Source: Tubulanus polymorphus (taxonomy: Eukaryota > Animalia > Nemertea). Taken from it: a DNA stretch of 64,000 nt. The notes below the pieces were generated by a model. It was given only the letters and a program-made list of their open reading frames with translations. It made no database searches and was not told the origin of the DNA. Location: contig NC_134026.1 in NCBI RefSeq assembly GCF_964204645.1, forward strand, positions 30,662,150-30,726,149, in the 5' to 3' direction. Positions within the stretch are counted from its first letter, which is position 1; every line of letters begins with the position of its first letter. Positions 1,967-61,068 of this stretch are shown here, piece by piece. The translations under genes were made by a program, and so were the position numbers.

Positions 1967-4195
1967 TCGTGCCCAATGAAAACGAGTATTTATAGAATTA
2001 ACGAAAGGTCGTCAATATCTGGCGGTAATTCTGCTGCTGGTAAATTCAATTCCACATTCAGTGGCACGACCTTCTTTAATGCATCAGTACCCGAATTAGG
2101 TGAACTACGTCAGCAATATGTGTAGACCACTTGCTACGACAAACGGACACATAGAGTAAACTTCCATGTAGAATGTTATCCTGACAGAACTGGATGAGAT
2201 GTTGATCTATGAATCATTTCATCGAATATCACCATCATCTTGGTACATTTCTATTGATTGTTTGTCCTCTGGTCTGAACGTGACAAGCGACGTCGCTGAA
2301 ATCATTGGTTTTCTTAGAAGTCAATTCTCTCTTATCTACAGGCTTATCTAATTTTCCGCGCTGCAAAATCACTGCATATACATATAATATATGGATATTC
2401 GCCATAAACAAAATAGCTTCAATTCAAACATTGATTGGTTGCGCTTATAGATATATGATCGGTAACGTTGTTGTCGAAAGCTTGATCTCGTGAGAAGTGG
2501 AAAGATGACCTTTTGAAAGAAATGACGTTAGGTCCTTCATAAGAAGATAGATTGGGTAAAATAGAGGAAAGTGGTTCGTCTCGGTATGGCTTCCAGATAC
2601 CGTCTCCACCCATCGCATGCGACCGACAATCAACTTCCGGGTGATGTAGCACTTATTGAAGGCGAAGCTGTACGCGGCACGACTAGAACCGGTTGAACCC
2701 TGGGCGTGTTTGTTTACTGAACCCTTCATAGGCGCCCCAAAGAGGGAGGCGGGGAGGGGTGCGAACGCCCCTTATACCTTTTCGGCCATAGTGCCCTTTT
2801 TGAAATAATGAAAAATATTTCTACAACATTTCACCACGGGATTTAACAGTCATTTTTTCATTTCACATCGGCGCTGTGTGGAAGACTTCAGATAGAAATT
2901 CGACCCTCCCGATTCCTGGTGACGCCCATGATTTGTCGCGTATATTTGTCCTCATTGCGACTGATTCCAATCTCGACTAAAGCTAAATGGTCATTTAGTT
3001 ACGACGATTCTATTCCTATTAGACCTCTATTGTATTGTATCAACTCGGAAATGAAGAGACGTTTTGTCGTCTTTCGTGTAAATGCGTGCGCGCTCTGCTT
3101 CACGACGCCAAAAACCTTGATTGATGAAGACACAGCGGGAACATTAATCATTACGAATCATGGCAGCTAATTCTTGATTCATGATATTACAGTAACAGTG
3201 CCCCCTTAAAGGCCGCATCCCCGGAGAGATGACTGTCAACATGTAAAGGATAAGTCGTCCACCGGAGCAGACTCTTCTTTAACTGTCATTCGATGCTATA
3301 TTCTAGTTCGGCTATATGATATACCAGAGTACTGATCGATTGTGTGTCCGCTTTCCTTTTATTGCGGCGACGCTAAGTCAACGACAAAATCATAATTCTG
3401 ACGTGCAAAGAAAACCGGTATATCGATTCATAACGATTAGATAGATATATGCGCTCAGTGCTCTAACCCAAACTCGGGGGATCGTATATGTAATAATCTA
3501 CCGGTATGAGTAAATTCCACGAATCCGTGGAACGCACCAGTATCCGTTACATCGAAAACTATGCCGAATAAATCCGCCATTAATAGTTATCAACAGGAAA
3601 ATGGAAACGTGATACTTTTTTTAAATTACAGCTATAGATATAAAGGTGTTCTATATTTACAGAGAGAAAAATCTCGTCGGAAACGTTTTTTTTTATGGTG
3701 CCCTAAACTTATCGAGATCGTTTTATATTCGAGTCCCTTGACGATATTTCCATTTTCCTTGTAATTGAGTAAAAGATGAATAGCCTGTCTGGATGGAAGT
3801 GACTAATGATTGGTTCTTCTGGGAGAAGATGACACGCGCGCCACTTATATCATATAGTCTAAAAACCTTTTTCACTGAGTTCATAACAAACGCTCCTTCA
3901 TAATTAAAATATTGATTCGAAACAGAAATGTTGCCCTAAACGAACTAATCTCTAATTTTTACAAGAGTGAACTATATTCAGGATTGTATTCATACTTCAC
4001 CGCAATGCTATGCCTTACACATTATACCTGGCCGTTATGTCAACAGCCAGATTCATAATCTATTTACGACCTCATTTCGACTTTTTCACGTCGATTTTGG
4101 TTCGAATTTAACAGTAACAAAAAGAAGCGTCGCAGGGAAATTTACGAAATTACCTTCTAACATTAAAACTCAAAATGATTTCATCGCATTTTCAG

Positions 4196-7100
4196 GGGGA
4201 AGAACGAATGTACCTACAGATAGATTTATCAGATGGTCTACTCGCTGAAGCAATGATGCAAGTATTGGATGTAACTGGAATTCGTTACCTGTCAATCCTC
4301 ATGGACGATAACTATGCAAAATATCAGTTTTTACACGCGTTTAACATCTTAGCACAAACGAACGATTGGAGTGTTGAAGACGCTATATTCGTGTCGCGTA
4401 CCGACTCTCAGAGCGAGTTACAACTTAAAATGCTGAGCCTTAAAGAGAATATATCAAGAATTGTGATATTGTTTTGCCACAGAGATTTAGCCAGGCGCGT
4501 GATGAAACAAGCATTTCTTATGGGTTTATTCGATAACGGTTATGCTTGGTTTCTCGCTGATACGTCACCAGAACACGATAACGATATACAATATTATCCG
4601 CTAGGTGTCGTTAGATTAGAACCCGTTCCACCTAGTGATTTTCGTCCTTTGATTAGAGATGTGGTGAGACTAGTGATTAAAGCATCTGAGTCTTATATCG
4701 GAAACTCACCAGCAGCGCTGTATTTACACCGTAACTACTCGTGTTGGAGCAAACCTTTACCTGTACAAAGAAACCGCGCAATATCTTTCTACAAGTAAGT
4801 ATATTACCAACTATTCTACCCCAAACCGCCCACAGCCTGGACAGTTCTTCATTCCGCAAAAGAAAAAAATGCCATAAGCTCTGCCTTTAAGCCGTTCATA
4901 TCTAGCCGTATATTATACTAAAGTGCACATTTATAGCAAAGTATATTCGCATGTTTGCCTTGTACAAGAGCAGTGACCAGTGGGTATGGTGACCAACCAC
5001 GTGTGGTAATCTGTTGTCAGAAGCAAGCAAAAACTTTCATGTCAATCATCATCATACTGCCAGGAATTTTCAAGGGCAGGGGCAACCTCCAAATGTAGTA
5101 TTCGGTGGACTGTAATGTTTTGAAATGTTCAGCTGAACAGAAAAGGCATCGGGGCTTTAAAGGGTTGCATTCAAACGTACGAATCCCCCTGTCTAAGATT
5201 ATATCTTCTTAAGTGCTCATTACTGATTTCAGTTCCGCTTATACATCCATTAATTCAGTGTAAGATTGTTTAAGTCTCGTGTTATTTCATGGTTGTGATG
5301 GAATTCTTCAAGGCGCCGCACGCGATCTATCCGACGATAAAAATCCTGTTTCTGCTTACACTGCACAATTTGATTATTGTATAAGATCATTGGCGGACTA
5401 ATACATTCCCATGGGGACTATTTAACAACAAACGTTGATTGTTCAAGTAGGGAATAAATGCGATTTTTCTGACGACAAATAGCACGCAATATTTCTATTA
5501 TAAATTCGATATTTGCGTATTCTCTTTAGAACGATTTTGAAGTTTTTTAATGATGATTTTGAAGTGGTTTATTTGTCTCTTGCAACCTTATTTTGCATTC
5601 GCATTTATCTACCACATCAAAAACCCCAGAGTGACATTCTGCTGGTAAAGTACACAAAATGGGAGTTAGTCAAACAAACCGACATCACACATAGTGAATG
5701 TAACACGCGTAATCAATGATTCCCAGAATCGTCATATTGTCACACGCAACTCACTGCTGTTCGCTGTGTGTTAACGCTTGGAATAAACCTCGGTTTATCG
5801 CTGCCTCTTCATCAGCCTAATGCCCTCTTTCCTCGTTTAAACTATTGTCCAGTTCAGCGTTAATTCCTGCAGATTGATCTCTCTGTCTGGACCGGCAGTA
5901 AACTCTCTTATCTAATCCCCTTGATCTTCAATCTATTAATGATTATGGCTTATTCTATTCTTACATCGAAGGAATGTGCGCTGAACACTGCATAGTATTC
6001 ACCGATGATCCTGTATATCAACTGTTGGTTAAAGCTTGGAGTAATCATTTGAAATGATTACTCCAAGGTTTAAGTCACGAAATCAATTGCTAAAAATTTC
6101 AGTAGTTCCAAGGAATGCTGAATCTCCGGTTTGTCAGATTGTGACCGTCAAGTGCTGCCCCTATATATTACATTGACGGCGAACGGTTAAACTAACTTAC
6201 CAGCGCAATATTCTTACTGCGGCATGTGGGTAATAGGTTGGTTCGCATATTCACCGGTAACGTTATATATAGGGGCAGCACTTGAAGTATTGAATTTTAC
6301 TTCTTGTTTTTTGTAAATAATTGTAAATACTGTTTTTCTTCCATATACTATGGAAATAGTTGGAGTGTAATAAATATTCGTATTCGTATTCGTAATTTAG
6401 CACCGCTCGCTATGCGAGATATTCATTTCAAGGGAAGTTTTGACATTATTTCAAACTGCCCATTTCATTTTACTCGCAGTATATCTGGTGTCTGAATCGG
6501 GCCATATGAAGTCACATACGAATCTGCAACCATAAATATAAATACATGAAGTCATTCATGACTATATTTTTTTAAATATAATCTATTCTATTTTGAAATC
6601 GCAACGCAAGTATTTACGCAAATTCATTCAATTCCTGGATATTGTTATGAGGCGGATCTAGAGTCTGAAGGTCGTACCAAATATTTTCAGCGCAAATTAT
6701 TTTGCAAAGTGCATTTCCAGAATTTTGACAAAATTGTGCCTTTGACTTTACAGAAATTGCCCATTTAGAAGTTATTTTGGATAGAATTCTGCCCTTTTTG
6801 AGAAACGCTTTTACATAGATATATAAGCACAATTCCCCCCCCCCACCGGATCGTATTGAATATTGTCTCTACACGTACGGAATAAATATACGAGTTCTTA
6901 TTTTTCAGTGCAATCAAAGATACCGAGATTGTCGGCGAAACTGGACCTTTCACATTTAACCAATTCGGTGCTAGAATCCAAGGAAAATACGAAATATTGA
7001 ACGTCGTTTACGAACACGGAAGCGTATTGAAAAAATGGCGCCACGTCGGTCACGTGACGAACGGAAGCGCTACTATGGAGTCGATTGTGTGGCCGGGTAA

Positions 7101-10100
7101 CGCCGTGTCGAGACCAGTCATTAACGGCATTAAAACATTCAGGGTCGTTACGAATAACGTAATGCCGTTCGTTATGAATCAGAAAGCTTACTTGCACGAA
7201 GATTCAATGCATGAATACAATTGCGGTACAGCGGAACCGTGTTTAAGAGTGAATACATCCAACTCAGACGTGTTAACCGCCATATTTGAAGATTTCAAAA
7301 AACACGTGCATAACGATAGCCGGCCTTACGAAGTTCACTGCTGTTCAGGTCTTACAATTAAACTCTTCCAACAACTGTCTAAAGATCTCAAATTTGACTT
7401 TAATCTCTACCTGGTGGCTGATCGAAAATATGGAAAACAATTAGCTAATAATACATGGAACGGTATGGTGGCTGATATACAATCGGGCGCCGCTGATATC
7501 GCTATCGGGGCTTTCAGTATTACTAACAGTCGTTTGGCTGTGATCGATTTCACCCAACATTATTTTCAATCAGGTTTTTCAATGATGATAAACGAACATA
7601 AAGGTAAGACGCCGCCGCTTAACGCCATTTTCGAACCTTTCGGACCCGAGGTGTGGTTTTCGATAACGGGCTGCGCGTCCGTTGCCGCCATTGCTATGGC
7701 TATATTCGAGTGGAATAGTCCGTTTGGATTGACCCCAAAAGCCAGAAAACGAGATAAAAACTATACTTTAGCGTCGGCTGCGACTATGGTCTGGTCGGTA
7801 CTGTTCGGACACACGGTAAAAACGAAAACGCCGAAATCTTGGCCGTGTAAAGTATTACAGAACGTCTGGGCCGGCTGTTCGATATTCATAGTAGCCAGCT
7901 ATACTGCAAACCTGGCTGCGTATTTGGCTGGTGAAACTGGACAAAAAACATTCAGCGGAATTAATGATCCGAAAGTAAGTATTTCTATAACACGGCTTCA
8001 GATGATGTTGAATCGTTCGAGAATAAACACAACTATTGAAATCTTCATTTTGATAAGGTTTCATTTTTTCAACTTTGTTTCGATCGATTTTTCATCTCTC
8101 AGGAAAGAGTCCTTTTCAGAAATTCACAAAATTCTTGAATTCTTGGTCCTTTAATTCTTACGAGGACTCGAGGGAAATGAGTCGAAATCGGACGTAACAT
8201 GTTGTAAATATAAATCTTATCAAAACGAAGATTTTAATGGTTGAGTTTCTTCGATTATTAACTATCTGGACCGAGTTCTACCGTTCCTGAGTTAAGATTT
8301 GACTCACTGAAAATGAGCCAATCTTAACTCAGAGTTAACTTTAGCTCAAAACTGTGGAACTGGGTCCAGGATACTAATACTCTTCCTAACTCATAATACG
8401 AGTTTGACTTCGAGGAATTTATTTATAATACTGGTTATATCTATATGTATGAAGCTGCTACAGGAGCGTCACCTGGCGATAGGTTCTGTCAGTAGCAGCG
8501 CCGTCGATATGAGAATTAGAAAACTAAATCCTCAACTTTATCAACTGGTTAAAAATAATCTAGTCCAAACTTCAGGGATCGGCATTGAACGAATTAAGTA
8601 TGTTATAAATACACGAAATTACGTTCGTTTATGTTGGTAGATTTTAAGATCCATTGCTTGCCAGGGTCGGTTCTTTGAAAGATGGCAGCAGGATAAGTAT
8701 AGAAAAAGGGGACTGACCCTGGCAAGTGACGCTGTATCCCAGTGTTGTACCGTGATGCCGTATTTACTAAGAGTGTATATGAATTTGATTTCAATGAATA
8801 ATTCACCCGAAATGTGCAACATTGCATTAGCTTTTTTAAGAAGAAAATCTATGCAGTTTTATTGCATCCTTTCCTTGGCAGGGGTTCGAACCTGATGGCA
8901 TCACTAGACCCGTGCCATCAGGTTCGAACCCCTGCCGAGGGAGGATGCTCTGTTGTTGCGGAATGTCTGACCGTTTCGTGATCGGGTCGAATCATTCATA
9001 TTTTCACAATCACTGCTTTTTTATTAGTCAGAGGTTTTGTTGTCGCCTGTCCTGCGATAAAAATGATATGGATGTCGTCGTTTCGATAGCGATAGGAAAT
9101 AATGAGGCTTTCTGTCGATTACTGAGTAATGGATAAGCAACACGTCATCATTCTTATCAAACATCCGAGCATTTTTACGAAATCTAGACATATACCAGTA
9201 AACCCTGGCGAGGTCCGGGTAAAAGAAAAATAAGATCAGAGGAATATAGAAAATAACTCGTAAAATCATCAAAGATGTGTAGTTTACAATAATCGACAGA
9301 ACGCTTTAGATTCGTCCGTTTTTGTGAAAGTCTCGTGAAAAGTAATTCCCAAAATTACATCATATAAATACACCCTTTTTATACATACATTATGATCAAT
9401 GTTGTATGAAGTGTTCTTTTGATTTTCAGTTAATTTACCATAAAGTTGCGGTAGTGAATAGTAGCGCCGCTGAGGAACACTTGAGAAAGGTCAACCACGC
9501 CCTTTATTTGAAGCGTATTACTCTCGAAGATGACAAAGTCCCAGTGCGATCACTTCTGTAGGTTCGCGAAAACAAAACTCAAATCATTTTAAATCATTGA
9601 TTGCATTTCGATGTTTTCTTCAAATTATTTGATGATCTCTGATGCAAATCAGCAAAAATCAATTCGTCTTTCGGTGGTTGTAATCATCGCCGTTTCATAT
9701 ATGTTGCGATCTCTTATTTCTTCGTGGATTCTAAACTGAAATTCAATTCTTTCCTCGAAAACACATAAATCTCTAATTTCAATTAGTTTAAGTTTGCATG
9801 TGGTGTTTGTGAACTCATCTGGTGTTTGTGGTGTTTGTGCACTCGTGATCATCAGAGATGATCTCATTAATGAAGGGACCTCATTTGTGAATCTCTCTGT
9901 GATTACAGTCTATATTAGATTATGTTTGCATTTACTGAGTGCTATTTCATGATGAGACACGTAACTGGACCCGGTTCTCTAGTTTACGTTGATTCTACAG
10001 ATAAAACTAGTTCATTTTCTCAATCTGCCTTGTATTCGGTCAATTCCTAACCGAGAACTGTGGAACTGGGACCCGCGGCTGTTCTTTTTACCTCTCACTA

Positions 10101-13100
10101 TCTGTGTGATGCAAATACTTCTATTATTTACAGTTTTTGAGCAACAAAAACAAACTAACTTAGTTTTAGGTAAACAATTTTTGCTAATTGAGATATAGGT
10201 AAAAGTGGGTTTTTTTCAAATCTCTTTCATCATATGTATGTTGTGACCACGTTGTCTAGTGAACTCCATTTGATTCATCACTACACTTTTAAAAACAAAA
10301 TTCATTTAAAAAATGATGAACTTAACAATCAACTGTTTTTTATGCGAGTCTGGCAAAACACAAATATCGTCAATTCGTAAAATATCTTATAGCAAGATCG
10401 ATAGCCTAAAAATGCGTCATTAAATTTAGCCGATGTTACGGCATCATCATCCATAAATTTGATTGATACATGAGCTGCGTCCATTAGATGCATTCGCAAA
10501 TTATTTACAATTATGGAAACCGCCTAAAGGTAAATCGGTACACTGCTTACAGGAACGGCTCTTTAGACGTTTACCTAGATGATACACCAATATTAGAATA
10601 TGCAAAGACACAATTAGACGATAACTGCTCATTGAAAATAGTTGGAGAGAGTTTCGGAGACGATGGTTATGGCTTCGGTCTAACGCACGGATCACCTATG
10701 AAGGTATTAAAGCGTGTAATCAAAGTCGAGTTACGCGACTGAAATATCAGCCCTAAATGAATGAATGATTCGTATATTTCTAGGAACCGATTTCTCGGAA
10801 GTTGATCGAATACAGGACTAACGGATTTCTAGAAGAGCTGCGCAATGACTATTTTAGCTATGTTCCGTGTCGGTCATACCCGAAAATGAAAGACGATGCT
10901 CGGGACATGGGTCTGACGTATAATCAGTTTCTAGCACTGTTTGCTGCTCTAGGGGCTGGTGTATTTGTTAGTATATTCATACTATGCAACGAACACGCTA
11001 TTTTTCTATGGTTCGTGCCCTATCTACGATCGTTGCCGACAAAAAGCCCGTGGAAAAGTTTAAAACTGATGTTTATAAGCCAGGTAAATATATCTCGACC
11101 GGGAATTCGAACCTGATGGAGAGGGATCTTCTCTAACGCCTATATCCCGGAGCCAAAGACCCTAATCCCTAACCATCTAGAGCGGTTTCGAAAGCCAAAA
11201 TTATGTTTTTTTTTCATGCCTGGATAAGGTCGTTATCCTGATAGCATCCCATGGCAGAGTTTCGATGTCATCAGGTTCGAGTCCCGTCTCGGGGGAATGG
11301 ATAAACTGCACCCATGGTTTCCATAGACAATACATTGACTGTCTACATGAATTGAAGATAAACCCCACAATAATGAAGAAAAACAAAGTATCGTATGCCA
11401 ATTTTGAAAATAGATTGTTTTGAAATCCGCTTTGAGAATGGCTCGTAGAATCGCGTGGAAACGTCACTATATCCTCCTCTTCAAACTGCACCTTTTTGTT
11501 CGGAACTTGTGCCTCAAATGTTGTGTCTCATTTCTTATGGTAATTTTCTCCTTGTATTTCCAAAGCGTTTGTATAGAATAGTGCATAGTCACGAGCTTGT
11601 GTCGCCGAATCATTCAGCTAAAGAGATGGTCACAGTGCTGAAAAACAGGCAATTCGAAAAATTATTCCAGAAGGACACAAAGGTTAGAGATGATAATAGG
11701 AAATACCTTACGAGAATTATATGTAATATTCTTAAGTCCCGCTTATTGCCTTGAGTGAATCGTTCATTTTAACATTCAATAGTCATATTCATGAATTACA
11801 CTAAATGCTATTGTGATATTAGGTTCAATGAGAATCATATGTATAACATTATAAAATCCCGCACCAAAAGAAGAGATCGAAATGTTCCCATATGTTATTC
11901 ATTTATTTCAATCAACCTATAATAGTCACCTTACCATTAGAATACCTCCGACAAGTTGAACGAACTATATTGGCACAAGGAATCATTTTATGTTCTTATT
12001 GTGGGATTCTATAATCATCAGTTTTATCAGTGGTTATACACAGCATCGTACGTCTTGATTTTGCCAGAAGAATCATTTTGTATAAAACTCAATGACCTGC
12101 GCCATCAGTAGATATTCTACACGTGGTTTTATCGAGGAGATACTTTTGAAACGTCGTGTAATTCAATATATTCGCAAGTTTCTTCTCCAATTTACAGGGT
12201 ACCGCTTCGCAACAAAAGCAAATGAATGGCATTATTGGCGGCAAGGCTTCGCTGTGCGACCTCAGCAATCAAATAATTGCGTATGTATCCAGCACCAATT
12301 TCTCCATATTGCCCAAAGAATTTTAGTTATTGCCTCGAGCATATTGTCAGATATGATTGGCAATCACACTGCGTCGATGAATAAATGAATAAAAGAAGAG
12401 TGGTTTTCATTTACCTCGGAAACTCTTCGGTTTTTATGTCAATCAGGGATGGTTTAATAAAGTACAATTGTGAGAGTTTCAATTTTTGTTACCAAATTCT
12501 AAAATAAACAGATTCATTCTGGTTTTTAGGTTGAGACGCCAACAGCCGGCGGGCGCGACCGCTTCCGTATCGGGCAGCGTCAGTCATAAAATCGAATTAG
12601 ATTTCGTAGATATAGCAACTCAAACTATGGAAGAGGATTTGTTTTTACATTGTACGCCTAGCAGTAGCAGCAGTAGTGGAACTACTCGCGTCATCAGAGC
12701 TGGTGGAAACACCGGTGAAGCGGAATATATCGAATTACATCAGGTTAGCCCATCGTGGCACGGCGACTGGGATAGGAGTTGGTTAGACGAAGACGATCAG
12801 AGTAGCGACGAACATCCGGCGTCTTATAACAACGAATCGTTCACGATGGATGAATCTGTCGATGAAATCAGCGTCAGGATTCCACCTCCGCCTGAATTCA
12901 GACAGATCGAAGACCACGACCAAATCGAACCCGATCGTAGGTATTCGCCACCATCCCCGACGTCGCAACAGGAGAAACAACATCGAGACGCGCCTGTAGG
13001 GTTCTCCATATCGATGGGAAACGCGGCTTTATCGAAAAAGACGACTAATAAAGACGTGAATATCGCGCGGGCGGCGGCGCGAGTGAAGAGTTTTCCGTTG

Positions 13101-46800: not shown

Positions 46801-48174
46801 CGTTGAACTCAGTGTTCTCAATATTTGGCCGTTTTTCCTCTCGCCTAAGTCCTGGGCGTACAGCCGCATTTTATGTAATCAACAATTTCCATACAGGTAA
46901 TGAATGTAATACCAAAACGGGAGCAGATACGACGGTCTGTCGGTTGGTTGATTTGATTTTGTCGGCTATTCGTGTTGGAGATTCAATTAAGCCGCGGTTG
47001 ATGATAAGACTTTGTGCCGGGAAACTGATTCTTAGCATTCACCAAGCTCGTGCCGACTGACCGCCAGGGCAATTCTTGAACTAAACCAATCTAAACGGCT
47101 GTAAGGAATGTTTCGGGGATGATGAAATTCCGTGACCAATCGTGCCGAATGATAGTTCTATTACTCGCGTGCGGTCACTATTAATAATGTAGACTATAGG
47201 TTCCTACACTCCTTACTACAACAAGTCGAATCTATACTTTTACCTTTCATTGACACCTTTTACATCGAATTTATCCCATTCATAGAGCATTCATCAATCT
47301 GAGCTGAGATATGAATATCAAATCGTATCAGTGATATACCGTAGTATGAAACTACATTCTGAACATTCACATCAGCTACTTTATTATCATCAAACAGCCC
47401 ATCAAATCATTCTAGCAAATATGGCACCCTCTAGAAATCCCTCTTATAACATTCATCACGATGTTCCTATGTACACTGTTCTAAACATCAGAAGATGCCT
47501 CTGCTATTAAGTGCCCTTATGACGTCATTTGCCTCTATAAACCATACCAGAACGAAAAGATGACTGCCTACGTACATGAATTCCAAGATGACATCATCAA
47601 ATTCTCTGAAGTTTGTACCATTTCGCAACAGAGTCTGTTGACGAGTTGCTAATTGATTACAAATATATATGAACGGTTATTATTGTATTGGGAGTTTAAT
47701 TTTGATAACAGTTGATGAATTAGTTGACGTGTTCATGCCACATCAATACGCGTCTTTCTATCTAGTAATAAACCAATTAGCGACCGCACAAGTAATGACG
47801 CAAGTTGTCCGCAGAAAACAATAACAAGACGACTTTTCTACGAATCTGTCACCATCTACAACATGGCGTATACTAAATTATCTATCAAGATAAAATGCAA
47901 CAGATTTTTTCTCGTGTGCGTTCAATATCAGTCGATGAATAGTAAAAACGTACACACGTGTTCTATGTTAATGGCAACATTATTCTTTAAGTTGTCACGC
48001 CATCGCGCCGCGTATGAAACACGGTCTCAGCTTAGCTCGAAACTTGGAGTGATCAGTCAGACAGAACTCCAAGGTCGACTGCAGCTATTAAAATTCATCC
48101 TGTTGTTTATAACATGCATGGACGCGCCGTATATCCCGGGATCATCATCTAAACTCTAGTTCATATATGTCCTT

Positions 48175-48480
48175 GGTTGGTACGGGTAGGGGTGATGATA
48201 GTTGCCCATGGTTGGTACGGGTAGGGGTGGTGATAGTTGCCCATGGTTGGTACGGGTAGGGGTGATGATAGTTGCCGATGGTTGGTACGGGTAGGGGTGA
48301 TGATAGTTGCCGATGGTTGGTACGGGTAGGGGTGGTGATAGTTGCCCATGGTTGGTACGGGTAGGGGTGATGAAAGTTGCCCATGGTTGGTACGGGAAGG
48401 GGTGTTGATAGTTGCCCATGGTTGGTACGGGTAGGGGTGATGATAGTTGCCCATGGTTGGTACGGGTAGGGGTGATGATA
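48175..48480. repeat. 35-bp G-rich minisatellite, ~8.7 copies
   Basis: Unit ggttggtacgggtaggggtgatgatagttgcccat with few substitutions. Confidence 0.96.
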
Positions 48481-51400
48481 GCCATTGGTGAAAAACTGCG
48501 TGTTTGTTGTAACGAAAGTATCTGTGACAAAAAATGAGTCGCAAAAGTCTCCTTGGGTTAAAATCTCGTTCGACATGTCGTTCTCAATTCATATATTCAA
48601 GATGTTACTGGCAGAAATATTTTTGTAGAATTGTTTATTCACTGCAATGCCAGAAATTCGAAAGGGCACCTTCAGGGGGAGATTTCTTTTCGATCGCCAC
48701 TACATTCCGGAATACCACGACCTGGATCAACATCTGGACGGATCGTAATGATGTTTTAGGGATCGACATACGATTTCGGCATCGGGCTGAATAATGATCA
48801 AATATTGTACCCAGACTAACATCAACTCGGGTTTATTAGTTCACACGCACCACAATGGAAGTACCAATCTTGCGTCACATACTCATATTACAACATAAAG
48901 CTAGTCAGGTGACGAGGTAAATTCTAACCGTTAATTTATTCAAGCGTTTGAAACAGTACTGCACTATTTTGCAGTGTAATAACGACAGCGCTCTTTCGAC
49001 AGCTGGCCTGATTTTGTCTGTCTCTCTCTACGTACTAACACATAAATGTTCACGGCTCCTAACTAAACTTGTGGTCGCGGCTCGCGTGATAATTATCATT
49101 TTCTGGCAATATTTCTGGTGAACGCGAGTTGTTCTGTTAATCTGCCTATTACATCAAAGGAAGCGTGTAAATCTAGAATAGGATAAACTGATGATGATTA
49201 CTCGCCCGCTGTGCTGCACCGGGCGCTGCGCCTCTATTTGGGATCTTACTCTTTTCGTAAACGTGTACGAATTAGACCAACAACCAGTGGTCAATTATCA
49301 GGTAAACTAACTTTGACTTTAATGATAAAATCAATTAGTTCACTAAAAGAATAAAGATATTTTTCAGTCGTTTTACAAGATAAGGTTGTTATTTTCTAAT
49401 ATGAATACCACCAGTTGTTTAAAATAGGGTACAGACCTCTAGAAGGGACTATCAGTTTGTCGATGTTATAATAACGTGTACACGAGTGTGGTCGGGATGT
49501 AGGTAATATATATGAGTTGGCTGTTAATTTTTTATTTCGAAATTTCAGGAATGCCGATCAACTCGTCTACATATAATCCAAGCTGGTTCATTTAGTGTGT
49601 GTGGCTCTTTATTGTGTAGTTTTACATAAAAAACTATGATTGTCAATTGATTCACGCTGCAAACTCACTGTGTATATATGCTGGATGTATTGATGCATTT
49701 AAGTGATGAGGTTATTTGCTTTCAACAGCATGATGTATGATGAATATTTCACGATATTTTCGAGAGAATAAATCTAGGCACTTGATAGAATATGTTTCGA
49801 AAAAATTGGAACGGCTTTATTGAAAGGTAAAACTAATCGATTCAAACTTCCTTATTCCGATGGAAGTTCACGCATATATGACTCATTTCAAACTGCAGTT
49901 CTACTATTAAGTATCAAAACCCATGTATACAAATTAAAAAGATCGAAAACGAATCAAAATCAAAACAAAACACGATGTTTCGGACTGTAAAGAGAGGTCG
50001 AAACGTCGTGACTTCTAGATTTAGACTTAGATTTTGATAAATAGACTTGATTTTTAATCTTTTGAATTTATATATAGTTGATTTGTTAATCCTCTTGGTC
50101 TGGATGTACGGGAATATTCTACCATGAGAAAACGTATTATTTCTTACAAATGGCAGAGGGGTCATCGTTATTTGAGGACTATTTGTTTTGCACTTGTAAA
50201 ATGACTACCGCGATCCGAGTCTGTTCTTATTGACGGCGGTAAAGGATGACACATTTTATGTTGATTACGACTCAATTTACGGCGGAAACTCATAAATTTT
50301 ACTAGTGCTCTTAAATTGGATGGTAGCAACATGTGTCGATTTCTACTCGCAAAAGGAAGTTCGCAATTTTATTAACCCTATTTTATCGTGTATATTCTAG
50401 ACGAATTTAACCCCTATTTCATTTAGTACGAGTCGAAAAGTTCACCCTGAAGGTTTGTAAATTCGTCGTGTAGTTGACAGTCAATTATCTACAGCAAACA
50501 ATCTTTACTCGTCTTATTTTCTTTGATGGTTCATGATCGGTTGAATAAGTGCTGAATATCGTATAGAGAGCCGCTTACTGAACCCAAAAACAAACGCAAA
50601 ACTGATTGTCTATTTATTTCTTTAGAATAATCACGAATTCCTAGAATTTTTAGAGAATCTCATCAGATTCAGATTCTGATGATTTGTGATGGTACCGTCT
50701 TCGGTCCATCGTGTACCTCGAGGTGATTTGAGGTTGGTGCCTTATGGTAATTTTCCTTGTGTAATAGAAATCCATTGGGTTGAAATTGATTGCTCGTGAA
50801 TACTCAACCGTATCGCCATGAATAAAATCGAATTAAGTTTAACCTCTGAAGATACCCTATAAATTCAATTCATCCTGTTGGCACGCTAGAGACCTCTTTC
50901 GGCGCTTTAAACTTGTTAGATTAAACATGTCCGAAGGGAGCTTCCTTATCTTCTTTTTAATGAAGTCCTTTGCCATTCTAAAAAGAAAAGATAAAACTCG
51001 CTGGGTTCACGTAAACATAATTGATTACATTTAGATCAAACAGTTCTTGAATTCCCAACCACAATTGAAAAGGTCACAGCCACCAGAAATCATTCACTTC
51101 CTTTGACCGAGTTCTTTTCAGAATCAACAGTTTGAAAATTAGGACCATTCAGTACCATAGATCGAATAGTAGTCGAATTTTATTAGGCTACACTAGGGTA
51201 GAAATAAGTACATTTCTAATGTTCTCACTGGACCGATAGCTGTGGAACCTAGACACTAAATCTGTATGCTAAATGTTTCTCAAACTTCTACGATTTCAAT
51301 ATATCGATCTCGAAATAGAGGCGATTTTCCGCCTTATTTATTCGATTTTATTTCTACTTATGTGTTGTATCCTATACCATATACACAGTACCGGATACGA

Positions 51401-52297
51401 AATTGTGAAAACGGGAATCGAAGTATAGATATAGTTGGACGGTTGGACGAATTGACAAGATTTTAATATATTGATATATCTGATTCTTATTCATTTCTTC
51501 TTTGATTCATTACAGGGAGTAAAGCTAGCGAGAGTAGCTGAAGGCTGTGTATGGCGGTGACTCAAGAGGTTCTAACACTTCGACGTATGTCACCAAGAAC
51601 CATTGGATCGTTATTTCGGAAATGAGCTCCATGGAGCAGCAGCAGCACCAGCAGCAGCACCAGTTGGATCAGTTTTTCATCTACTTGATCACGATGCTGG
51701 TAAACTAGGAGCGTGTATAACTACATCACTGGAATATTAACAAGTCAACAATATTGGTCAAGTGCTGCATTTACCACTTGGATATTATCAAAAATACACA
51801 CACAAAGAAATTACGAAGAAAATAGATTTCATCAGCGGAGCATATCGAAAAGTTCTTTCTATGCCATCGGATATGAAACTAATTTATAAATAATGAAGAA
51901 GGTGCGGTGATGTCTTGTGATTAAGGACAAACGTCGACAACGTTATTAAATTTACTGCAATATCTTTATTGATTAAATCAGAATAGCCAAGACCTTCGAC
52001 TTGGGTTACTTCCGGTTCGTGCTATGTGTATATATAGTACTTATACGCATTATTCCCGTCGTAAATAGTTATTGAAATATTGGAAACAATTCGCTATCGA
52101 TGATTAGTATATATGCAGCGCAGGAATCACTTACTAGATTACACCATCTGTATTTACACAGTTTCTGTGCCGTGCTTTTGAAGGGAATCACAAATATGAA
52201 ATTTCGCCGAATAAATGCGGTTTGAGCTGTGAGGAAGACGCTATAGTTAAATCGCTGTTATACAATATAAAAAAGCGAAGGTTTTTCAACAAAAACA

Positions 52298-53299
52298 ATG
52301 TGTAATAACAGCGGACCGCCTTATGAATACGGTGTCGGGAGTCGCGTTATTCTCGGCATATTTTTACTGATTCTGATAGTATTGACGATACTCGGCAATC
52401 TCGTAGTTATAACGTCGGTTCTAATTTTCCGCAAACTACGCTCAGTGACTAATGCGTTTGTCGTATCTTTAGCGGTGGCTGATCTGTTAGTCGGTGTACT
52501 GGTGATGCCCTTTGACACGTATAGACAACTGAGTAACGCTGTTTGGGATCTCGGTAAAGGAATGTGCCTGGTGGCGACTAGTTTTGACGTCATGTTCACC
52601 ACCACATCGATCATTCATCTCTCATGTTTAGCCGTCGATCGATATTTAGCCATATGCCATTGTTTTATATACCACCAATACATGAATCAAAGGACGTCCA
52701 TTATTTTATTGTTTTTATGTTGGACGGTTCCTCTTCTCGTGTCGTTCATGCCGATTATGAACGAATGGCACGCGATTGGGATAGAGGGTCTGCAACTGCC
52801 GCATGATGTTCCGGCCTGTGTGTTTATAGTCAATAAACCGATGGCCATAATCGGCTCGTTAGTCGCGTTTTATGCGCCGACAATATTCATGTTCGTCTGT
52901 AACTATCGAATATTCCAAGCCGCAAAAAGACAAGCTCAACAAATCAGGAATCTAGAGGTGGCGACACCTAGCGAAATACACCATAACAAAAGCATGCGCC
53001 ACGAGACTAAAGCGGCGAAAACGTTAACTATCGTTATGGGCGCGTATTGTGTTTGTTGGTTTCCATTTTTTATCTGTAATATCATAGACCCTTTTATCAA
53101 TTACTGTATTCCGGCGCATGTATGGCTAGTAGCCGTATGGCTGGGTTACGTGAATTCAACTATAAATCCATTTCTGTACTACTTTTTCAACAGATCGTTT
53201 CGTAAAGCATTTATTCACTTGCTCTGTCTGGAGAGGTGTGCCCTGGTACGTGAGTTCGACGCTAACGGAAATACAACTCTTTCAACCGTGTCTGAATGA
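52298..53299 (+). CDS. Class A aminergic GPCR, serotonin 5-HT4 receptor-like (intronless CDS)
   Basis: 333 aa, 7 TM; GN, LAVADLLVG, TM3 Asp (SFDVMFTT), DRY, 'CVFIVNKP', 'ETKAAKTL', CWFPFF, 'NIIDPFI', 'WLGYVNSTINPFLY'. These segments closely resemble 5-HT4/TAAR-group receptors. Probable splice acceptor of the coding exon at about 51515. Confidence 0.9.
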   Translation: MCNNSGPPYEYGVGSRVILGIFLLILIVLTILGNLVVITSVLIFRKLRSVTNAFVVSLAVADLLVGVLVMPFDTYRQLSNAVWDLGKGMCLVATSFDVMFTTTSIIHLSCLAVDRYLAICHCFIYHQYMNQRTSIILLFLCWTVPLLVSFMPIMNEWHAIGIEGLQLPHDVPACVFIVNKPMAIIGSLVAFYAPTIFMFVCNYRIFQAAKRQAQQIRNLEVATPSEIHHNKSMRHETKAAKTLTIVMGAYCVCWFPFFICNIIDPFINYCIPAHVWLVAVWLGYVNSTINPFLYYFFNRSFRKAFIHLLCLERCALVREFDANGNTTLSTVSE

Positions 53300-59330: not shown

Positions 59331-60416
59331 TCATTTTAAATCGCAGAAATATTTGATTAGAAAAACTTGTTTCGCTTTTTTCCTGAATGCACCGTTCGTT
59401 GCACAGTAAATGAAGAAGTTTACAGACGAGTCTAAGACACTGAGCAAAATTCCAACTTTGCGCATGATCATCTTCTGCGCCCCTGATAGACCGTAACGTA
59501 AGCGATATGTATAATGCAAGTAATGTAACACGCGATCCAAAGATGCCGGAATTTCAAAAAGAAAATATGCAAAAACAATAAAAAGAACCATTTTTAATAT
59601 TTTGTAATGCGTAAATGTATTTTTAGTTTTATCGCCGGGAGCACCGCTCTCTTCTGAAAATAGTTTCTTTTGATTTCGTTTTCTGAACATCATTACTACC
59701 AATAAAGATAGATTCACCACAAATAATACGCTAAAAGGTACAAGAACGATCATGAAAATGTACGTAATGAACACAAAGTGATATTCCCCTTGAAAATCAT
59801 ACTGAAATGGTGTCCGAATCGTTTTTGCTCCGAAAGCTCCCATTGTAAATAGACCACGAAAACAACGATGTGTGGCCCTTCCAGGTAAACGTAATGGGAA
59901 ATAACGTGGCCAGTTAAAACCTGCGGAAACAAACGCATTAAAAACCGATAGACAGATTATTTGTTTCTTATTCCAGAATCGTCTAAAATACATCGGACTC
60001 GCGATGACTAAAAACCTTTCAAAACTTACGACAACCACTGTCCAATTTCTTGCCATTTGGAATGTGTAGAACAGTGGCAGTGCCCATATTATAATTTCAT
60101 GTCCAAAATACCAATCGTCGTAACGGCCAACAAATAACGGTTTTTGGGATTTTATCACACGTATTCGAAGCGGATAAAGTATAAACACTGAAAATGCGAA
60201 CAGAAAATCAAACGAGGCAAGAATTATCATGGTATGATATGTAGTGCGACCAATCCTTTGAAATATCGCGATCACTGCAGCGTTCAGAATCATTGCTAAA
60301 ACTGAAGCTGCTAAATATCCGTATGTGTAGATATTATAACTAAACAAGTGTTCCCATTTTTGCGGAGGAAGCACGCACTCGGGGACAGGAGTGGAAATGA
60401 CGGTTGTTAAATTCAT
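59331..60416 (-). CDS. Class A peptide GPCR, FMRFamide-receptor-like (intronless)
   Basis: 7 hydrophobic segments, 'ILASFDFLF', 'WTVVVVSFERFLVIASPM', 'FNWPRYF', 'DSSVNFFIYC'. The first in-frame ATG is at 60416 (MNLT, N-glycosylation sequon); the ORF-track start at 60470 is a GTG. Confidence 0.85.
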   Translation of the reverse strand: MNLTTVISTPVPECVLPPQKWEHLFSYNIYTYGYLAASVLAMILNAAVIAIFQRIGRTTYHTMIILASFDFLFAFSVFILYPLRIRVIKSQKPLFVGRYDDWYFGHEIIIWALPLFYTFQMARNWTVVVVSFERFLVIASPMYFRRFWNKKQIICLSVFNAFVSAGFNWPRYFPLRLPGRATHRCFRGLFTMGAFGAKTIRTPFQYDFQGEYHFVFITYIFMIVLVPFSVLFVVNLSLLVVMMFRKRNQKKLFSEESGAPGDKTKNTFTHYKILKMVLFIVFAYFLFEIPASLDRVLHYLHYTYRLRYGLSGAQKMIMRKVGILLSVLDSSVNFFIYCATNGAFRKKAKQVFLIKYFCDLK

Positions 60417-61068
60417 ACCGAGTTCACTGTATTTGACAGTCACAATTTGAATGAAGGTCTCTCCATTCACCGTTGCTGACTATTACTGATACCTCCGGTG
60501 TATTGCCATGTTATCAACTCGTATCTCTCGTAGTGGGTGAATGATAATTTCTTCATGTTTGCAGGGTATAATTTGTTTCACTAGTTCGATATATGCGAAA
60601 TATTTCACTCGTACTATTCAAAAGACTTAAAAATGCAAAGAATGAATTTCGAAATAACTCGAAAACGAAAGGTTTTGAAGTTGAATATCGAAAACAATAG
60701 CGTAGGCCAGACTTTAAACACGATACCGCTTTAGACAAATGGGAACTTGAACCGTACCGTATCAGAGTTCCGAGTGTAAACTAAAGAAATTTGAACTAAG
60801 GCTAAAAATGAAACTTTGTTTCTCCTAATTGGTCGCGTCATTTTGTGAACTGCAATAAATTTGATTTTAAAAGTAAAATGTACAATGTACAGTAAAACGG
60901 GTACAGGGTAAATAGGCGGCCGGCTGGGCCAACTTAGCAGAAATTAGAAACAAGGAAACAATTCTTCTTATGCTTATCTATGAATTGTGAAAAGAATTCT
61001 CACAGAAAGAGATGAAGATCCATTTCCCATAGAAAAAAAAAACAACAAACAATTTTCTATTTTTTAAA

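What the first reader, a model, noticed from the sequence alone, without database searches (positions are those of the whole stretch)
8455..9557. Mutually exclusive duplicated exons swap the S2 agonist-binding lobe of a GluN3-like NMDA receptor
Seen: between the M3 exon (ends GINDPK, phase 0, 7974) and the NGSLDVYL exon (10553, phase 2) lie two open exons, A (8455-8597, 143 nt) and B (9430-9557, 128 nt; not in the ORF track). Both have canonical AG/GT and phase 0 to 2, and they are homologous (A: GSVSSSAVDMRIRKLNPQLY; B: AVVNSSAAEEHLRKVNHALY). Including both or skipping both breaks the frame, so productive mRNAs carry exactly one. Known: this segment holds the S2 helix that contacts the agonist (GluN1 KQSSVD, GluN3 RESSAE, GluN2 GSTE), and GluN1 Val689 helps exclude glutamate. 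Inference: A is GluN1-like (AVD) and B is GluN3-like (AAE) at that position, and B is 5 aa shorter, so one gene could switch ligand affinity, selectivity or gating by splicing. The AMPA flip/flop cassette lies elsewhere (end of S2), and I know of no equivalent cassette in vertebrate NMDA subunits.
Basis: partly seen in the sequence, partly recalled or inferred. Interest (0 to 1): 0.88.

Follow-up and report, generated by a model that had tools for sequence, protein, structure and literature searches.

The report
Worm NMDA receptor's swappable ligand-pocket exons
A ribbon-worm gene for an NMDA-type neurotransmitter receptor subunit holds two old, intact copies of the exon that builds part of its ligand pocket; only one copy at a time keeps the reading frame, an annelid worm has two deposited protein versions with the same swap, and the switch likely tunes agonist potency or speed rather than turning glycine-type into glutamate-type binding.

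Summary
Exons A (8455-8597) and B (9430-9557) are open, AG/GT-bounded and phase 0 to 2. Including both or neither gives an early stop. The gene is a protostome GluN3-class subunit of the nemertean Tubulanus polymorphus, and its RefSeq model uses B. A profile built without Tubulanus scores A 32.7 and B 31.1 bits; the next of 50 intronic candidates scores 0.5. In the aligned core, third codon positions are saturated while first and second are conserved, so the duplication is old and both copies are likely constrained. Key new evidence: the annelid Owenia fusiformis has two deposited isoforms that differ only in this exon, at the same boundaries. Other annelid-like, mollusc-like and arthropod-like loci carry one copy. 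No RNA run was available, so splicing in Tubulanus is inferred, and one origin versus two is unresolved. The ligand argument is weaker than proposed. Both exons keep a glycine/D-serine-type alphaF motif (SAV, SAA), and Owenia has Val in both. The shared A/B difference is at the start of helix H (GluN3A T825 and G828 positions), which predicts changed potency or kinetics. Nine literature searches found no report of it.

The parts
4193..4792 (+). ATD-coding exon of the GluN3-class gene (approximate ends, from tblastn)
   Evidence: P0003 residues 121-320 map here; Pfam ANF_receptor
6909..7974 (+). Large constitutive exon: S1, M1, M2, M3; ends phase 0 with a GT donor
   Evidence: the same intron position is seen in mollusc, annelid-like and vertebrate genomic ORFs
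8455..8597 (+). Cassette exon A (143 nt; in-frame alternative acceptors at 8464 and 8467). alphaF motif SAV; Ser and Gly at the GluN3A T825 and G828 positions. Absent from the RefSeq model
   Evidence: closer to Owenia isoform P0004 (score 65) than to P0120 (34)
9430..9557 (+). Cassette exon B (128 nt). alphaF motif SAA; Asp and Pro at the T825 and G828 positions; shorter predicted helices G and H. Used by RefSeq model XP_074641443.1
   Evidence: closer to Owenia isoform P0120 (score 46) than to P0004 (22)
10553..10703 (+). Constitutive exon after the cassette (starts phase 2); carries Asp-Asp at the GluN3A M844/D845 positions
10784..11083 (+). Exon for the end of S2 and M4 (3' end approximate, from tblastn)
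8266..8369 (.). High-copy intronic repeat upstream of A; a related copy at about 9965-10075 lies downstream of B. Probably unrelated to exon choice
   Evidence: contig depth above 10,000 in the bin holding the upstream copy; D6, I3, I11
8873..8940 (.). High-copy 28-bp-arm hairpin repeat between A and B
   Evidence: I2

Best explanation
This GluN3-class NMDA receptor gene carries two old, intact, tandem copies of the lower-lobe exon of its ligand-binding domain, which are likely spliced in a mutually exclusive way to give two subunits predicted to differ in agonist potency and gating kinetics while both likely remain glycine/D-serine-type. Shown: both exons are open and homologous, only single inclusion keeps the frame, and the Owenia orthologue has two deposited isoforms with this swap. 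Inferred: exclusivity is enforced by regulated splice-site choice plus nonsense-mediated decay of double-inclusion and double-skip products. A steric or distant-branch-point mechanism is unlikely, because the intron between A and B is 832 nt and the AG-free zone before B is only 16 nt. Inferred: the cassette supplies the start of helix F, which contacts the ligand, and the helix G-H link with the start of helix H. A keeps the usual Ser/Thr and Gly there, while B replaces them (Asp/Pro in Tubulanus, Pro/Ser in Owenia), so B would hold the clamshell closed less stably or differently, shifting EC50, deactivation or desensitisation of receptors likely formed with GluN1.
For: Frame logic and stop positions. 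Profile scores against candidates and shuffles. Codon-position pattern 14/12/6 of 20. Owenia CAH1776022.1 and CAH1776023.1 differ in one run of 40 columns with the same boundaries; the Owenia genome paper built models from RNA-seq and PASA and reports 31,678 of 31,903 transcripts as RNA-supported (passage; that these accessions come from that set is my inference). Reciprocal similarity A-A 65 and B-B 46, against cross-pairs 34 and 22 and within-species pairs 32 and 26. AlphaFold models of the S1-to-S2 core with Tubulanus B (mean pLDDT 92.0) and Owenia A (91.1) both complete the lobe; helices G and H are 6 and 7 residues in B against 8 and 10 in A. Ligand residues matching GluN3A Y605, S633, R638, S800 and D845 are kept. 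GluN3A T825L, a position inside this exon, raises glycine EC50 from 89 to 785 uM (PMC6707325 Table 1). One X1 contig spans the M3 exon to A and another spans B to the next exons, so the layout is in the DNA.
Against: No junction read was seen for either exon in Tubulanus. RefSeq lists only the B form (cluster of 1). A's acceptor is AAG with no clean pyrimidine tract, though its pyrimidine count (12) is close to B's (13) and above the constitutive next exon's (10). Owenia evidence is at protein-annotation level; its genomic DNA was not seen. Five annelid-like loci (4 distinct) that span the whole interval carry one exon only, so the cassette is dispensable in other lineages. In the cassette tree Tubulanus B does not join the B clade. 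The T825 position is not invariant among single-exon relatives, and its register in Owenia B is uncertain by one residue. The folds used alignments dominated by canonical sequences and two different species backgrounds. Both exons have Ala, not Ser, at GluN3A S801, and the M844 position is Asp, so glycine binding itself is a prediction.
Confidence: 0.62

Rival explanations
1. Exon A is a recently silenced leftover in Tubulanus; only B is spliced, as in Capitella and the other single-exon annelid-like loci.
For: RefSeq gives only B. A's acceptor is AAG without a clean pyrimidine tract. Loss down to one B-like exon appears to have happened in other lineages.
Against: A is fully open, has a GTATGT donor, and is the more canonical copy (score 65 to Owenia A, up to 72 to mollusc exons). 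Third positions between A and B are saturated, so silencing would have to be very recent. No variant in A in the three DNA runs over the part they cover (weak). The RefSeq model may be partly ab initio.
Confidence: 0.13
2. The cassette switches agonist identity (for example glycine or D-serine versus another amino acid).
For: The alphaF motif lies in the cassette and is the main selectivity determinant. In GluA2, GST>SSV and GST>SAV gave different best agonists (alanine versus D-serine) (PMC13648236 section 14). Owenia A has SSV and B has SAV; Tubulanus has SAV and SAA. The Asp at the M844 position leaves a pocket that may admit larger ligands (inference).
Against: Neither exon has the Gly-x-Thr glutamate motif. 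The motif differences are not the same in the two species. The same paper warns that such effects are hard to predict.
Confidence: 0.12
3. One isoform (probably B) binds agonist poorly and acts as a structural, trafficking-regulated or dampening subunit rather than a retuned receptor.
For: B has a Pro at the conserved Gly of helix H, shorter helices and lower local pLDDT (82 for residues 311-320). Glycine-site mutations in GluN3A reduce surface delivery (PMC6707325).
Against: B is the annotated form in Tubulanus, Lineus and Capitella, and B-like exons are the only copy in four distinct annelid-like loci, so B-type subunits are probably functional on their own.
Confidence: 0.13
4. On origin only (compatible with the best explanation): the Tubulanus and Owenia pairs arose by two independent duplications of the same exon rather than one duplication before annelids and nemerteans split.
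For: The AU test does not reject TubA+TubB (p 0.21) or OweA+OweB (p 0.17) as clades. A B-type profile separates Tubulanus B from A only weakly (19.1 versus 15.1 bits). Tubulanus B scores as high against some single mollusc exons (up to 46).
Against: Owenia B groups with the exon of another nemertean (Lineus), Capitella and the annelid-like loci at 95/86, without Owenia A. The B clade including Tubulanus B is not rejected either (p 0.33). The A-A and B-B scores are reciprocal bests.
Confidence: 0.4

Closest known systems
AMPA receptor flip/flop exons (vertebrate GRIA1-4)
   Same: Tandem duplicated, mutually exclusive exons in the S2 part of an iGluR ligand-binding domain; wrong combinations shift the frame, and NMD is the suggested guard (PMC8257547, PMC13520880, passages).
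   Different: Flip/flop is 115 nt, 38 aa, differs at 8-10 residues, lies at the end of S2 in the dimer interface and arose in early vertebrates. This cassette lies right after M3, includes the ligand-contacting alphaF motif, shares only 11 of 43 residues between copies, differs in length, and is in the NMDA subfamily of invertebrates.
Vertebrate GluN3A/GluN3B (GRIN3)
   Same: Best PDB sequence matches (E 3e-94 against 9e-60 for GluN1). Gly at the pore site, S633, R638 and D845 equivalents kept, same intron after the M3 exon.
   Different: The gene falls in a protostome branch, sister to arthropod NMDAR3-type genes and apart from a second Lineus GluN3 that groups with deuterostomes. Pore G-H rather than G-R; Ala at S801; Asp at M844. 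No relevant alternative splicing of human GRIN3A/B was detected in PMC8257547.
Lymnaea Cav3 exons 12a/12b and NALCN alternative exons
   Same: Alternative exons that retune a core property of an invertebrate ion channel (PMC9694082, PMC3557258; search listing and start of abstract only).
   Different: Different channel superfamily; they alter ion selectivity, not the agonist pocket.

Membership tests
Mutually exclusive tandem exon pair | Two adjacent homologous exons with canonical splice sites and the same phases | tested here: met
Mutually exclusive tandem exon pair | Double inclusion and double skipping are non-productive | tested here: met
   Stops at 9431-9433 and 10580-10582, each more than 50 nt before a downstream junction
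Mutually exclusive tandem exon pair | Both exons are found in transcripts of this species | not testable with these tools
   No RNA holder listed; the three runs behave as DNA. RefSeq model has B only.
Mutually exclusive tandem exon pair | The pair is present in an orthologue | tested here: met
   Owenia isoforms P0004 and P0120, at protein level only; one exon in all 8 loci tested across the whole interval
NMDA3 / GluN3 class | Groups with GluN3 against GluN1 and GluN2 in a tree | tested here: met
   100/99 for the GluN3 clade; 46 rows, 394 columns, cassette columns removed
NMDA3 / GluN3 class | Glycine-type binding residues (Y605, S633, R638, S800-S801-A802, M844-D845) | tested here: inconclusive
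   Y, S, R, S800 and D845 are kept; S801 is Ala in both exons; 802 is Val or Ala; M844 is Asp
NMDA3 / GluN3 class | Gly-Arg at the pore N and N+1 sites | tested here: inconclusive
   Gly kept, His in place of Arg
NMDA3 / GluN3 class | Assembles with GluN1 into glycine-gated channels | not testable with these tools
   Needs expression and recording
AMPA flip/flop cassette | 115-nt exons at the end of S2 in an AMPA-class gene | tested here: not met
   Different class, position and size; it works like flip/flop but is not a member

The most novel reading that the evidence does not exclude
A single exon duplication older than the annelid-nemertean split gave a protostome GluN3-class subunit two interchangeable ligand pockets, so that one gene makes receptors with different preferred agonists. 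The pocket's unusual Asp-Asp motif may admit a ligand other than glycine. Some lineages kept both exons (Tubulanus, Owenia) and others fixed only B. This would be the first splice switch of agonist identity in an NMDA-family receptor.
Probability: 0.12. Interest if true: 0.9.

Novelty: new variant of a known kind. Interest (0 to 1): 0.7.

Why it matters
Flip/flop in vertebrate AMPA receptors is the textbook case of retuning a glutamate receptor by exon swap, and the papers read here treat splicing of invertebrate iGluRs as little studied. A second, independent cassette, in the NMDA subfamily, inside the agonist pocket's lower lobe and present in two phyla, gives natural paired variants in an otherwise identical subunit. 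They allow a direct test of how helix F and the start of helix H set agonist choice, potency and desensitisation, and offer a way into the protostome GluN3 class, for which I found no functional study.

Tried and rejected
No whole genome is held for this window. RNA search: no RNA holder listed; the 3 of 3 runs laid cover introns and show no spliced joints, so they say nothing on expression. A protein search with exon A alone found 0 of 9 candidates at E<=10; it is too short and divergent to be informative. Isoform pairs of Haliotis (2), Octopus (2), an unnamed cephalopod-like cluster (3) and Babylonia (1) do not swap this exon: 0 of 8 pairs, against 1 of 1 for Owenia. I considered that the two mollusc paralogues each kept one of the exons. 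This was not supported: the tree puts mollusc type 1 next to the B clade (90/85), but profiles put Tubulanus A with type 1 and B with type 2, and the two mollusc clades are unresolved in the gene tree. A docking/selector RNA structure was not found: the long inverted repeats are mostly high-copy elements or of chance length, and no related intron DNA with both exons was available. Steric and distant-branch-point exclusion were rejected on intron length (832 nt) and B's AG-free zone (16 nt). False duplication by assembly was rejected: A and B share little DNA similarity and both lie in contigs of run X1. The group labels in the table included some wrong rows, so only the tree itself was used. 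Foldseek returned NMDA receptor chains and added nothing to the sequence result. Earlier findings of the scan: none. No supplements were read; a supplementary isoform list could mention this cassette.

Full report
1. Observation. The M3 exon ends at 7974 in phase 0 with a GT donor. Exon A (8455-8597, 143 nt) and exon B (9430-9557, 128 nt) are open, AG/GT-bounded and end in phase 2, and the next exon starts at 10553. Either exon alone restores the frame. Both together stop at 9431-9433, and neither stops at 10580-10582; by the usual 50-nt rule (established knowledge) both products would be NMD targets. The peptides are homologous (local score 45; 1 of 5000 shuffles as high). A profile of 27 relatives without any Tubulanus sequence scores A 32.7 and B 31.1 bits, the next of 50 candidate exons in the intron 0.5, and the best in 100 shuffled introns 5.2. 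In the 60-nt core, identity is 14, 12 and 6 of 20 at codon positions 1, 2 and 3. The copies are therefore old and have likely both been under protein-level constraint. A has in-frame alternative acceptors at 8464 (134 nt) and 8467, and which one is used is unknown.

2. The gene. The large exon matches at 99% a RefSeq model named NMDA 3A-like of Tubulanus polymorphus (P0003, XP_074641443.1, 1204 aa). That model uses B and has no second isoform. Its best PDB matches are GluN3A. In a tree without the cassette columns (46 rows, 394 columns) it lies in a lophotrochozoan clade (98/96), sister to arthropod NMDAR3-type genes (99/98), inside GluN3 (100/99) and apart from a second Lineus GluN3 that groups with deuterostomes. 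GluN3 genes in protostomes are known (PMC6307864, PMC5225553, passages).

3. Relatives. Owenia fusiformis has two deposited proteins, CAH1776022.1 (P0004) and CAH1776023.1 (P0120), identical except for one stretch with the same boundaries as the cassette. The Owenia genome preprint describes RNA-seq- and PASA-based models, with 31,678 of 31,903 transcripts RNA-supported (passage); linking these accessions to that set is my inference. Global scores: TubA-OweA 65, TubB-OweB 46, TubA-OweB 34, TubB-OweA 22, TubA-TubB 32, OweA-OweB 26. The Lineus and Capitella models carry B-like exons. None of 8 mollusc-type isoform pairs swaps this exon. A metagenome scan gave 50 loci. All 50 were screened by profile and 21 were tested for candidate exons, of which 8 were tested across the whole interval to the next exon. 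All 8 have one exon: five annelid-like (4 distinct; B-like, 140-146 nt), one mollusc-like and two arthropod-like (134 nt). The taxon labels of these loci are inferred from sequence similarity.

4. Origin. In a 46-column tree of 45 cassette peptides, Owenia B, Lineus, Capitella and six annelid-like exons form a clade (95/86) without Owenia A. Tubulanus B falls outside it on a long branch. AU tests reject none of: all B together (p 0.33), TubA+TubB (0.21), OweA+OweB (0.17). A B-type profile prefers Tubulanus B over A only slightly (19.1 versus 15.1). One duplication before the annelid-nemertean split (over 500 My, recalled) is somewhat favoured, at about 0.6; two independent duplications remain open.

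5. Mechanism. GluN3A numbers were counted from the alignment and agree with those used in PMC6707325. Y605, S633, R638, S800 and D845 are kept, S631 and S801 are Ala, and M844 is Asp. The cassette covers about L785-K833: helix E, a strand, helices F and G, and helix H (helix names other than alphaF are recalled). The alphaF motif is SAV in A and SAA in B; in Owenia it is SSV and SAV. PMC13648236 (abstract, sections 14 and 20) describes SSV and SAV as the motifs of glycine/D-serine-selective NMDA subunits and GST as the glutamate motif; PMC6307864 (passages) gives the same rule. So neither exon predicts glutamate binding. What both species share is the change at the start of helix H. At the T825 and G828 positions, A has Ser/Gly (Tubulanus) and Thr/Gly (Owenia), while B has Asp/Pro and Pro/Ser (the Owenia B register is uncertain by one). 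T825L in rat GluN3A raises glycine EC50 from 89 to 785 uM (PMC6707325, Table 1 passage). Models of the S1-to-S2 core fold confidently with either exon type (pLDDT 92.0 for Tubulanus B, 91.1 for Owenia A); B has shorter helices G and H and a local dip to 82. Tubulanus A itself was not folded in context. I infer a change in potency or kinetics rather than agonist class; this is untested.

6. How exclusivity is kept. The A-B intron is 832 nt and B's AG-free zone is 16 nt, so steric and distant-branch-point mechanisms are unlikely. Both donors are ordinary GT sites. The long inverted repeats are mostly high-copy elements. Regulated choice plus NMD is the simplest reading, as suggested for flip/flop (PMC8257547, passage).

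7. What is missing. No RNA run was listed, and runs X1-X3 behave as DNA, so use of A in Tubulanus is inferred. Owenia genomic DNA was not seen.

8. Novelty. Nine searches of the paper library listed no description of this cassette. Most subscription papers and all supplements were unseen, so this is not proof of absence. Flip/flop lies at the end of S2 in vertebrate AMPA genes (PMC8257547, PMC13520880, passages), and human GRIN3A showed no relevant alternative splicing (PMC8257547). Verdict: a real, old, tandem exon pair, very likely a working cassette (about 0.8), flip/flop-like in logic but in another subfamily and another part of the domain, and present in two phyla. New variant of a known kind; interest 0.70.

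Noticed in passing
window 10553-10703 and homologues P0004-P0038: The residue matching GluN3A M844 is Asp in this lophotrochozoan clade (motif YLDD) and Gly in one mollusc paralogue group (YLGD). An acidic or absent side chain here may change which ligand fits, independently of the cassette.
   Followed up: partly
window 12198-12281: A small C-terminal exon of the RefSeq model has no resemblance to the conserved stretch that follows in Owenia, mollusc and insect homologues; the model may be partly ab initio here. No convincing better exon was found.
   Followed up: partly
P0006/P0023, P0008/P0035, P0009/P0017, P0010/P0021: Molluscs have two paralogues of this gene, and each pair lists the same longest-contig length, which suggests they lie on one chromosome or scaffold.
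   Followed up: partly
P0046 (Lineus), P0228: A second nemertean GluN3 gene, grouping with deuterostome GluN3, has a long insertion in the same helix G-H link that differs between A and B.
   Followed up: no
P0177 versus P0018 (Babylonia): Isoforms differ by 4 residues at the acceptor of this same exon, similar to the alternative acceptors of exon A.
   Followed up: no
window 52271-53296 (+) and 59334-60479 (-): Two long single-ORF rhodopsin-family GPCR genes (Pfam 7tm_1, E 1e-62 and 4e-7).
   Followed up: partly
window 47728-48588: Several overlapping open frames with repeated peptide units, probably a tandem repeat; no Pfam match for the one frame tested.
   Followed up: no
window about 1800-1980: Long CAG-type microsatellite, read as poly-Gln, poly-Ser or poly-Ala frames, upstream of the ATD exon; the first 120 residues of the RefSeq model do not map in the window.
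   Followed up: no
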